Shown piece after piece: positions 47,762-47,841 of a stretch of 62,914 nucleotides of DNA (positions are counted from its first letter, which is position 1; the number at the start of each line of letters is the position of its first letter). The position numbers were made by a program, and so were the translations under genes. The notes beneath the pieces were generated by a model. That model saw nothing but the letters and a program-made list of their open reading frames with translations, did not search any database and had not been told where the DNA came from. The stretch comes from a virus (lineage: Duplodnaviria > Heunggongvirae > Uroviricota > Caudoviricetes): positions 113,952-176,865 of IMG/VR virus record IMGVR_UViG_3300021403_000003. One strand, given 5' to 3'.

Positions 47762-47841
47762 TTACAAAGGCGAGGAGACCCTGGTTCGAATCCAGGTTGG
47801 ACCGATTGGTCCAATAGCTCAGAGGATAGAGTGCCTTGCAA
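47762..47841 (+). ncRNA. circularly permuted tRNA-like RNA (YrlA-like) #2
   Basis: AAGGC, T arm CCTGG-TTCGAAT-CCAGG, acceptor TTGGACC-GATT-GGTCCAA, D arm GCTC-AGAGGATA-GAGT, GCCTT. Confidence 0.8.

What the first reader, a model, noticed from the sequence alone, without database searches (positions are those of the whole stretch)
47762..47841. Near-perfect circularly permuted tRNA (T arm first, hairpin-closed acceptor, then D arm)
Seen: AAGGC, variable region, CCTGG-TTCGAAT-CCAGG, TTGGACC-GATT-GGTCCAA, TA, GCTC-AGAGGATA-GAGT, GCCTT. All tRNA arms are present, but the chain opens at the anticodon loop and a 4-nt loop seals the acceptor end, so there is no anticodon and no CCA. Established: bacterial and mycobacteriophage YrlA Y-RNAs have this permuted tRNA-like module and normally lie beside a Ro60/Rsr gene. 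No Ro60-like ORF occurs in this window. Inference: an elbow mimic or decoy that cannot be charged or cut at an anticodon, or an orphan Y-RNA recruiting host Ro60/PNPase.
Basis: partly seen in the sequence, partly recalled or inferred. Interest (0 to 1): 0.85.

Follow-up and report, generated by a model that had tools for sequence, protein, structure and literature searches.

The report
Stand-alone back-to-front tRNA mimic in phage
A soil T4-like phage carries, inside its array of 32 tRNA genes, a well-formed "inside-out" tRNA look-alike with no anticodon and no CCA end; its core matches that of bacterial Y RNAs (YrlA), but the handle and the Ro60 protein those RNAs normally work with are missing, so it probably acts alone as a non-decoding tRNA surrogate.

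Summary
Window 47764-47845 folds into a circularly permuted tRNA: closing stem, 4-nt variable loop, T arm, 7-bp loop-closed acceptor stem, UA, D arm. The canonical tRNA tertiary-contact nucleotides are all present.

GCGAGG 47770-75 / CCUUGC 47834-39 is more stable and restores G26 and a normal variable loop.

A covariance model built from 30 independent modules of this kind scores the element at 60.2 bits. The best tandem-tRNA junction in the genome scores 31.3. Rfam YrlA matches only the tRNA-like core (26.1 bits; gathering score 69).

The element lacks the long Ro-binding stem, having 9 bp against about 17 in the Rfam consensus. The strict Rsr motif is absent. The 177-kb genome (CheckV 100%) encodes no TROVE, DUF2828, DUF7788, vWA or other Ro-like protein, and I found no DUF7873.

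In my survey, half of such modules in other phages sit within 1 kb of a Ro-like gene, and all four complete genomes have one.

Best reading: a Ro-independent, YrlA-type tRNA mimic released from the tRNA operon by tRNA-processing enzymes. No relatives and no RNA data were found, so function is inferred.

This scan has noted many permuted tRNA mimics on other DNA, mostly beside Ro60-like or DUF7873 genes. This one has neither.

The parts
47659..47735 (+). Upstream neighbour tRNA-Leu(TAG) with encoded CCA (47733-35). Its 3' processing would define the 5' end of the element's RNA.
   Evidence: ARAGORN; Rfam tRNA 48.9 bits
47740..47761 (+). 5' hairpin: AGACUAAC / GUUAGUCU (8 bp) with loop GUCAGU. 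It fills the spacer between tRNA-Leu and the mimic.
   Evidence: MFE fold; pairing probabilities 0.87-1.0
47764..47766 (+). Basal helix, 5' strand ACA (pairs with UGU 47843-45). It is followed by the AAG 47767-69 side of a 3x3 internal loop.
   Evidence: probability 0.76-0.92
47770..47775 (+). Closing stem (anticodon-stem equivalent), 5' strand GCGAGG. GGCGAGG 47769-75 is a one-mismatch match to the YrlA Rsr motif GNCGAA(N)G.
   Evidence: motif definition from PMC4201824; strict motif absent
47776..47779 (+). Variable loop AGAC (A44, G45, A46, C48). C48 can form the Levitt pair with G15.
   Evidence: read from the sequence in the fold; aligned to the variable positions of models RF02553 and R1
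47780..47796 (+). T arm CCUGG-UUCGAAU-CCAGG.
47797..47814 (+). Acceptor-stem hairpin UUGGACC-GAUU-GGUCCAA: 7 perfect pairs and a 4-nt loop, no CCA. The predicted RNase P site is between U47807 and G47808 (inference).
   Evidence: RNase P/CCA precedent for a 7-bp acceptor stem in M. smegmatis YrlA (PMC4201824; 10.1101/312249)
47815..47816 (+). UA, equivalent to tRNA positions 8-9.
   Evidence: alignments
47817..47832 (+). D arm GCUC-AGAGGAUA-GAGU (G10.U25 wobble; A14, G15, G18, G19, A21). The GGAUA loop and GAGU strand resemble tRNA-Arg D arms.
   Evidence: identical first 24 nt in Treponema tRNA-Arg(CCU) genes
47833..47839 (+). G26 equivalent (47833) and closing stem 3' strand CCUUGC (47834-39).
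47840..47848 (+). AAG side of the internal loop, UGU (pairs with ACA), and a UUU tail that ends at the 5' end of the next tRNA, where RNase P would cut.
47849..47924 (+). Downstream neighbour tRNA-Arg(CCT) with encoded CCA. It leaves only 16 nt after the D stem, so there is no room for a long Ro-binding 3' strand.
   Evidence: ARAGORN; Rfam tRNA 40.6 bits

Best explanation

Shown from sequence and models:
- It has the order closing stem, variable loop, T arm, loop-closed 7-bp acceptor stem, D arm.
- All nucleotides needed for the tRNA elbow and core are present.
- It has no anticodon loop and no CCA.
- It lies between two tRNA genes with no promoter or terminator of its own.
- It lacks the Ro-binding stem, and the phage encodes no Ro60-like protein.

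Inferred:
- It is transcribed as part of the polycistronic tRNA precursor. It is released as an RNA of about 113 nt by RNase P cutting at the 5' end of tRNA-Arg and by 3' processing of tRNA-Leu.
- Because its acceptor stem has the full 7 bp, RNase P probably also cuts in the GAUU loop (before G47808). Trimming and CCA addition could follow, as happens to M. smegmatis YrlA. The product would be a nicked, two-piece, anticodon-less tRNA look-alike.
- It most likely works without Ro60 as a tRNA surrogate bound through its elbow and acceptor/T minihelix. It could act as a decoy or adaptor for a tRNA-recognising host or phage protein in the tRNA-centred conflict. The phage's other equipment points to such a conflict: 32 tRNAs, an Rnl1-type RNA ligase, an RNA-repair HAD phosphatase and a GGQ release-factor-like protein.
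For: - Structure: MFE -40.2 kcal/mol, z -3.77, 0/200 shuffles; helix probabilities 0.7-1.0.
- Class membership: custom model R1, built from 30 independent modules without this one, gives 60.2 bits against 31.3 or less for tRNA junctions. Rfam YrlA core match 26.1 bits, E 1.6e-4.
- Ro-linked phage modules also score only 25-46 bits against Rfam YrlA, so a sub-threshold score is normal for phage versions.
- Not a recent tRNA rearrangement: no parent tRNA in the cluster, and no CCA although almost every tRNA printed encodes one.
- Context: no promoter-like or terminator-like site between the flanking tRNAs; tRNAs abut at 47735 and 47849.
- No Ro partner: TROVE, DUF2828, DUF7788 and VWA_2 are absent. 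phmmer and profile searches with 14 Ro-like ORFs from other loci gave only noise.
- RNase P/CCA precedent for a 7-bp acceptor stem: PMC4201824 and 10.1101/312249.
- An analogous minimal module lies between two tRNAs in another phage contig, L137.
- RNA-repair genes are present in the genome.
Against: - There is no evidence of conservation. No relative of this phage or of the element was found, so no covariation test was possible.
- No direct evidence of expression or processing could be obtained.
- RNase P cutting of a substrate whose leader is tied to position 73 by a 4-nt loop, without CCA, is unproven.
- In my survey all four complete phage genomes carrying such modules encode a Ro-like protein. 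A Ro-less carrier is therefore the exception and could be a relic.
- No binding partner is identified. The decoy/adaptor role rests on analogy only.
- CheckV's 100% is an estimate, and the record has no terminal repeats.
Confidence: 0.5

Rival explanations
1. It is an orphan Y RNA that recruits the host's Ro60/Rsr (and through it PNPase or another effector). On this view it is a minimal YrlA in which the Rsr-binding helix directly abuts the tRNA-like domain.
For: - The core is YrlA-like.
- GGCGAGG 47769-75, in the 5' strand of the terminal helix, differs by one base from the Rsr motif GNCGAA(N)G (PMC4201824).
- In the Rfam consensus that motif also lies in the 5' strand of a helix closed by the RNA's 3' end.
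- Phage Ro-YrlA cassettes often sit beside tRNA arrays.
Against: - The strict motif is absent.
- The basal stem has 9 bp in two helices against about 17 bp in three helices in the Rfam consensus. Only 16 nt separate the D stem from the next tRNA.
- A 5-of-6 match to a hexamer within about 40 nt is weak evidence.
- Every Ro-linked module I examined carries its own Ro-like gene within about 1 kb. The host is unknown.
Confidence: 0.14
2. It is an evolutionary relic without function. Either it is the surviving tRNA-like core of a lost Rsr-YrlA cassette, or it is the product of a tandem tRNA duplication that lost its outer halves. It is tolerated because it lies in a non-coding spacer.
For: - It is a singleton with no detectable relatives.
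- All four complete genomes with such modules keep a Ro-like gene.
- Tandem tRNA junctions mimic part of the pattern: 22-31 bits, and the cyanophage BLAST hits are Asn|Val junctions.
- The neighbouring second permuted-like element folds poorly (z -1.2).
Against: - All four helices are intact: 25 pairs, of which only two are G.U, and no mismatch. Every tertiary-contact nucleotide is canonical. Free decay would not be expected to preserve this.
- No parent tRNA is present in the cluster.
- A duplication origin needs three separate deletions, including removal of the encoded CCA and trimming of the spacer to 4 nt.
Confidence: 0.2
3. It is a cis-acting processing element. On this view it is a tRNA-shaped punctuation mark that gives RNase P and 3'-processing enzymes an entry site in a long spacer of the polycistronic tRNA precursor, and the released RNA has no role of its own.
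For: - It exactly fills an inter-tRNA spacer together with a 5' hairpin.
- The first-stage note e1-5439593 says most long spacers of this array are structured.
- tRNA-like structures are used as RNase P processing signals in other systems (cited in 10.1101/312249).
Against: - The flanking tRNAs already supply RNase P and 3'-end sites, and most tRNAs of the array are separated by only a few nucleotides. An extra signal is therefore not obviously needed.
- A simple hairpin would do the job; a complete tRNA core with the Levitt pair and elbow nucleotides is more than punctuation requires.
Confidence: 0.1
4. It is a true permuted tRNA gene, as in Cyanidioschyzon merolae. The ends would be joined, for example by the phage Rnl1-type ligase, to make an anticodon loop. 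The acceptor loop would then be opened by RNase P and CCA addition to give a decoding tRNA.
For: - The gene order is 3' half, short linker, 5' half.
- The phage encodes an RNA_lig_T4_1 ligase.
- Wang et al. raise the possibility that some YrlAs are processed toward canonical tRNAs.
Against: - No canonical 7-nt anticodon loop (U33, purine 37) can be assembled from the flanks in the favoured register. The flanks read ACAAAGG upstream and CAAGUGU downstream.
- There is no bulge-helix-bulge motif; the flanks form a symmetric 3x3 loop.
- No bacterial or phage pathway of this kind is known (10.1101/312249).
Confidence: 0.03

Closest known systems
YrlA (Y RNA-like A; Rfam RF02553; Chen et al. 2014 PMC4201824; crystal structure Wang et al. 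2018, 10.1101/312249)
   Same: - Same circularly permuted tRNA core: variable loop, T arm, loop-closed acceptor stem, UA, D arm.
- The anticodon-stem equivalent is formed by the 5' and 3' flanks.
- The same tertiary-contact nucleotides are present.
- It has no anticodon loop and no CCA.
- The 7-bp acceptor stem matches the M. smegmatis YrlA that RNase P cuts.
   Different: - No extended Ro-binding stem (9 bp against about 17).
- The strict GNCGAAN0-1G motif is absent.
- No V arm.
- The T-stem sequence CCUGG/CCAGG differs from the YrlA consensus GCGGG/CCCGC.
- No Ro60/Rsr gene beside it or anywhere in the genome.
- It is embedded between two tRNA genes.
- It scores 26.1 bits against a gathering score of 69.
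Phage Ro60-like (TROVE or DUF2828/DUF7788) genes with adjacent permuted tRNA-like RNAs, surveyed here in IMG/VR and metagenome contigs
   Same: - Same core; the custom model built from these modules scores the element 60.2 bits.
- These cassettes are often next to or inside phage tRNA arrays (L027, L094, L104, L126, L144).
   Different: Those RNAs have long-range basal stems and mostly a V hairpin, and a 430-590-aa Ro-like ORF follows within about 1 kb in 13 of 26 cases. Here there is none.
Permuted tRNA genes of Cyanidioschyzon merolae and some green algae and archaea (recalled from memory: Soma et al. 2007; discussed in 10.1101/312249)
   Same: The 3' half lies upstream of the 5' half, and the two acceptor strands are joined by a short linker.
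   Different: Those genes mature through a bulge-helix-bulge splice and a circular intermediate into decoding tRNAs. Here there is no BHB motif, no anticodon loop can be assembled, and no such enzyme is known in bacteria or phages.
DUF7873-associated double tRNA-mimic RNAs
   Same: They are Ro-independent permuted tRNA mimics found in phage tRNA clusters. A second permuted-like element lies 115 nt upstream here (47541-47649).
   Different: - No DUF7873 match among 62 ORFs of 170-340 aa in this genome.
- The two modules here are separated by a normal tRNA-Leu.
- No adjacent protein gene.
Phage T4 stable RNAs C and D (species 1 and 2) encoded in the T4 tRNA cluster (recalled from memory, not checked here)
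   Same: They are small non-decoding RNAs co-transcribed and processed with phage tRNAs in a T4-like genome, and their function is still unknown.
   Different: As far as I recall they are not circularly permuted tRNAs and they end in CCA-like acceptor structures. No sequence comparison was made.

Membership tests
YrlA (Rfam RF02553) | Reaches the Rfam gathering score (69 bits) | tested here: not met
   26.1 bits, model positions 28-81 only. Caveat: 18 of 18 phage records with such modules, including nine with an adjacent TROVE gene, also score only 25-46 bits.
YrlA (Chen et al. 2014) | tRNA-like domain in the order T arm, closed acceptor stem (AS), D arm, with tRNA tertiary-contact nucleotides | tested here: met
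   U8, A14, G15:C48, G18, G19, A21, G26, A44, U54, U55, C56 and A58 were read from the sequence.
YrlA (Chen et al. 2014) | GNCGAAN0-1G Rsr-binding motif near the 5' end | tested here: not met
   No exact match within the 75 nt searched upstream of the T loop, nor in the rest of the element. GGCGAGG 47769-75 has one mismatch.
YrlA / Y RNAs | Extended basal stem formed by the 5' and 3' ends (the Ro-binding module) | tested here: not met
   The Rfam consensus has helices of 6, 7 and 4 bp. The element has 3 + 6 bp, and only 16 nt lie between the D stem and the next tRNA.
YrlA / Y RNAs | Encoded beside a Ro60/Rsr (TROVE) gene | tested here: not met
   No TROVE, DUF2828, DUF7788 or VWA_2 in the 176,865-bp genome. 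No hit to 14 Ro-like ORFs or their profiles.
YrlA / Y RNAs | Bound by Ro60/Rsr | not testable with these tools
   Needs immunoprecipitation or a gel-shift assay. The host is unknown.
Hairpin-closed permuted tRNA-like module (structural class defined here by model R1) | Scores with a covariance model of variable loop, T arm, closed acceptor stem, UA and D arm, built from 30 independent examples | tested here: met
   60.2 bits, E about 9e-15, full length 1-58. Next best in the genome is 31.3 bits, a tRNA junction with the hairpin skipped.
Canonical tRNA | Cloverleaf with anticodon loop, detected by ARAGORN or Rfam RF00005 | tested here: not met
   No ARAGORN call. RF00005 matches only the T arm at 13.4 bits.
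Permuted tRNA gene (C. merolae type) | Flanks form a bulge-helix-bulge motif and regenerate a 7-nt anticodon loop | tested here: not met
   The flanks form ACA/UGU plus a symmetric AAG x AAG loop. No U33/purine-37 loop can be assembled from them.
DUF7873-linked tRNA-mimic RNA (scan-internal class) | Lies directly after a DUF7873 gene | tested here: not met
   No protein gene adjoins the element. DUF7873 is not among the Pfam families found for 62 ORFs of 170-340 aa. Caveat: those tables show 25 families each (1 and 9 weaker ones were not shown), and I could not obtain the Pfam accession for a direct genome search.

The most novel reading that the evidence does not exclude
The tRNA-like domain of Y RNAs may have a life of its own. 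In this Ro-less phage, RNase P would open the free-standing module at its acceptor loop and it would be CCA-tailed. The product would be a two-piece, anticodon-less tRNA that can be bound (perhaps even charged) by tRNA enzymes and that neutralises or redirects a tRNA-targeting host factor. [quoted passage not shown]
Probability: 0.12. Interest if true: 0.8.

Novelty: new variant of a known kind. Interest (0 to 1): 0.5.

Why it matters
The tRNA-like domain of bacterial Y RNAs is a solved structure, but its partner and purpose are still unknown (10.1101/312249). Published searches looked only in genomes that encode Ro60 (PMC4201824). This copy has lost the Ro-binding handle, sits in a phage that appears to encode no Ro-like protein, and is wired into the tRNA operon. 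That would show the domain can be kept for its own sake. It also offers a small, simple substrate (about 82-113 nt) for finding what binds it. In addition, it adds to the list of non-decoding tRNA-shaped RNAs in large phage tRNA arrays, which bears on how phages counter tRNA-targeting defences. The case rests on one sequence, with no relatives and no RNA data, so its weight is limited for now.

Tried and rejected
1. Near and distant BLAST against 50,697 phage records. Near gave no match. The distant hits are unannotated or annotated Asn|Val tandem tRNA junctions in cyanophages, not homologues.
2. Exact-word searches of IMG/VR for the element and for the two flanking tRNAs: none.
3. Protein-guided search for relatives. 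The DNA ligase gave one 45%-identical contig without tRNAs or the RNA. The adjacent 141-aa protein has no homologue other than itself among 5.8 billion proteins. No covariation analysis was therefore possible.
4. Sequencing runs. Only the probable source soil metagenome holds the stretch, and no RNA holder was listed.
5. Other weak YrlA hits in the genome (window 44737-44831 at 17.9 bits; 48845-48963 at 13.6 bits). The first is unconvincing on inspection (z -0.7). The 46131-46201 hit is the Val|Pro tRNA junction.
6. A search for the acceptor 5' half in bacterial genomes, hoping to identify which tRNA is mimicked. It matches tRNA-Arg(CCU) in Treponema, tRNA-Lys in Fusibacter and tRNA-Phe in Aerococcus, so no identity or host can be inferred. 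Only the D arm looks Arg-like.
7. Pattern AAGGNGAGG...T loop...TAGCTCAG. It mostly finds ordinary tRNA-Gly/Arg anticodon arms, plus L137, L319, L321 and L322. ORFs beside L322 are a primase and an ERF-like protein.
8. Looking for a DUF7873 example or accession.
9. A third register, AGGCG/UGCCU, which would leave a Val-like UUUACAA loop upstream, was considered and rejected because it removes position 26 and shortens the D stem.

Full report
**What the window is.** The window is bases 113,952-176,865 of a 176,865-bp IMG/VR virus record. CheckV rates it 100% complete, and no terminal repeats were found. Its family B DNA polymerase is 44% identical to gp43 of T4-like cyanomyoviruses. Pfam finds T4 baseplate, neck, gp32, gp59 and clamp-loader families. 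The only sequencing run holding the stretch is a soil metagenome that is probably its source. Between about 44.7 and 52.5 kb the + strand carries 31 of the 32 ARAGORN tRNA genes. Every tRNA printed encodes its CCA except one Gln(TTG) copy.

**The observation.**
- T arm CCTGG-TTCGAAT-CCAGG, 47780-96
- acceptor hairpin TTGGACC-GATT-GGTCCAA, 47797-47814
- TA, 47815-16
- D arm GCTC-AGAGGATA-GAGT, 47817-32

The whole inter-tRNA spacer 47736-47848 folds into an 8-bp 5' hairpin (47740-61) followed by a four-way junction. The MFE is -40.2 kcal/mol and z is -3.77; none of 200 dinucleotide shuffles folds as well.

The closing stem needs correcting. GCGAGG 47770-75 / CCUUGC 47834-39 gives -38.4 kcal/mol, or -40.2 with ACA 47764-66 / UGU 47843-45 across a symmetric AAG x AAG loop, and probability about 1.0.

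In the corrected register the element has a G26 equivalent (47833) and a 4-nt variable loop, AGAC. It also has the full set of tRNA core nucleotides: U8, A14, G15:C48, G18, G19, A21, G26.A44, U54, U55, C56 and A58. ARAGORN and the Rfam tRNA model do not call it.

**Is it more than chance or a tRNA junction?** The 3' half of one tRNA followed by the 5' half of the next imitates part of this pattern.
- Rfam YrlA scores the Val|Pro junction at 22.3 bits and the element at 26.1.
- The only distant BLAST hits in phage genomes are Asn|Val junctions.

I therefore collected independent examples. I scanned viral and metagenome contigs for a T loop followed 19-23 nt later by TAGCTCAG, and kept cases where the intervening strands pair in at least 6 of 7 positions. 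After removing cases that overlap called tRNAs, 26 true modules remained; three more with 2-nt acceptor loops and L073, which overlaps one tRNA call, brought the training set to 30.

A covariance model built from those 30, without the element, scores the element 60.2 bits over its full length, E about 9e-15 for the whole genome. The best junction reaches 31.3 bits with the acceptor hairpin skipped. No tRNA of the cluster resembles the element's two halves. A duplication origin would need three deletions, including loss of the encoded CCA. The element is a real member of this structural class.

**Relation to YrlA.** Rfam YrlA aligns positions 28-81 of its 114-position model: variable loop, T arm, closed acceptor stem, UA, D arm.

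Chen et al. 2014 define YrlA by three features:
- the tRNA-like domain;
- a GNCGAAN0-1G motif near the 5' end, thought to bind Rsr;
- a location beside a Ro60 gene. They searched only genomes with a TROVE protein.

Wang et al. [quoted passage not shown]

The Rfam consensus mounts the domain on three helices of 6, 7 and 4 bp. The element has 3 + 6 bp. Only 16 nt lie between its D stem and the next tRNA, it has no V arm, and the strict motif is absent. GGCGAGG 47769-75 is a one-mismatch version.

**The missing partner.** Among 18 viral records holding pattern matches that passed the hairpin filter (a few later proved to be tRNA junctions), nine have a TROVE gene about 1 kb or less from the RNA, including all three records that are at least 90% complete.
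- A fourth complete genome has a DUF2828 protein.
- L094 shows a DUF2828+DUF7788 ORF next to its module.
- Thirteen of the 26 true modules plus L073 are followed within 900 nt by an ORF of 380 aa or more.

In this phage, TROVE, DUF2828, DUF7788 and VWA_2 are all absent. phmmer and two profile HMMs made from 14 such neighbouring ORFs find only noise among all stop-to-stop ORFs of 80 aa or more.

Earlier notes of this scan tie many Ro-less permuted mimics to a DUF7873 gene. I found no DUF7873 among 62 ORFs of 170-340 aa, and no protein gene adjoins the element. I could not obtain the family's accession for a direct search.

**Analogues.** Several modules lie in or beside phage tRNA arrays. The closest is L137: a minimal module with a short closing stem between tRNA-Ile(GAT) and tRNA-Gly(TCC). 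Its 45.8-kb contig (42% complete) has no TROVE or DUF2828. Array-embedded minimal modules therefore recur at least once, but the sample is too small and too fragmentary to call them a family.

**How it probably works.** No promoter-like or terminator-like site lies between the flanking tRNAs. I infer co-transcription with the tRNAs. RNase P cutting at G47849 and 3' processing of tRNA-Leu would release the RNA.

M. smegmatis YrlA is the one YrlA with a 7-bp acceptor stem. RNase P cuts it in that loop, and it is nibbled and CCA-tailed in vivo. The element also has 7 bp and a U at position -1. A cut before G47808 is therefore plausible but unproven.

The phage also encodes:
- an Rnl1-type RNA ligase
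- a HAD_SAK_2 RNA-repair phosphatase
- an Rv2179c-like 3'-5' exoribonuclease
- a P-loop kinase
- a GGQ (RF-1 domain) protein

That equipment fits a tRNA-centred conflict with the host. I therefore favour a Ro-independent tRNA surrogate, a decoy or adaptor recognised through its elbow and acceptor/T minihelix. This step is inference.

**Rivals:**
- a relic without function (0.2);
- an orphan Y RNA for host Ro60 (0.14);
- a processing signal (0.1);
- a true permuted tRNA gene (0.03). The last is unlikely because the flanks cannot supply a canonical anticodon loop or a bulge-helix-bulge motif.

**Limits.** No relative of the phage or element was found, so there is no covariation evidence. No RNA run was listed.

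**Verdict.** The structure is real and belongs to the YrlA-type core class. It is not a Y RNA by the defining features I could test. Its function is unproven. I rate it a new variant of a known kind, of moderate interest.

Noticed in passing
window 47541-47649: A second permuted-looking element (first-stage note e1-5439596). It has closing stem GGGAG/CUCCC, T arm GUGGG-UUCGAUU-CCCAU, a ~55-nt imperfect arm in the acceptor position and a D-like hairpin. The fold is not better than shuffles (z -1.2), and model R1 matches only its T arm (13 bits).
   Followed up: partly
whole genome (ORFs listed); window 52751-53140: The phage carries an RNA-repair and translation-rescue set: RNA_lig_T4_1, HAD_SAK_2 (Swiss-army-knife RNA repair phosphatase), an Rv2179c-like 3'-5' exoribonuclease, Ploopntkinase3, two calcineurin-like phosphoesterases and a 129-aa RF-1-domain (GGQ) protein. 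I did not map which ORF carries which family.
   Followed up: partly
L137:9825-9881 (- strand), IMGVR_UViG_3300044470_000166: The closest analogue: a minimal hairpin-closed permuted tRNA module with a short closing stem, wedged between tRNA-Ile(GAT) and tRNA-Gly(TCC) in a 16-tRNA array. Its 45.8-kb contig has no TROVE or DUF2828.
   Followed up: partly
L113:2066-3532 (-), L160:6996-8477 (+), L217:3239-4723 (+): Proteins of 488-494 aa directly downstream of permuted tRNA-like RNAs form their own sequence cluster. The one I scanned against Pfam (L113) shows only weak vWA hits and no TROVE. They may be a divergent Ro60-like family that Pfam TROVE misses.
   Followed up: partly
L094:845-2275 (-); G021 contig 60261-60998: DUF2828 (+DUF7788) proteins take the place of TROVE next to permuted tRNA-like RNAs beside phage tRNA arrays. 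One DUF2828 match contains an in-frame TAG.
   Followed up: no
window 47927-47946: A direct tandem repeat TTGACGAGCT x2 lies immediately after tRNA-Arg(CCT), at the start of a ~470-nt stretch (47925-48397) with no convincing ORF.
   Followed up: no
window 49467-49522 and 49794-49853: Two partial Rfam tRNA matches (model positions 10-63 and 8-63; 37.3 and 31 bits) lack acceptor stems. The second overlaps an ARAGORN tRNA-Gln call.
   Followed up: no
L321 and L322 (IMGVR_UViG_3300035208_001610, IMGVR_UViG_3300017988_000959): Two contigs without any ARAGORN tRNA share a conserved element: D arm, T arm, closed acceptor hairpin (UUCG loop), second D arm. In L322 it lies in an intergenic stretch between an ERF-like gene and a primase gene.
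   Followed up: partly
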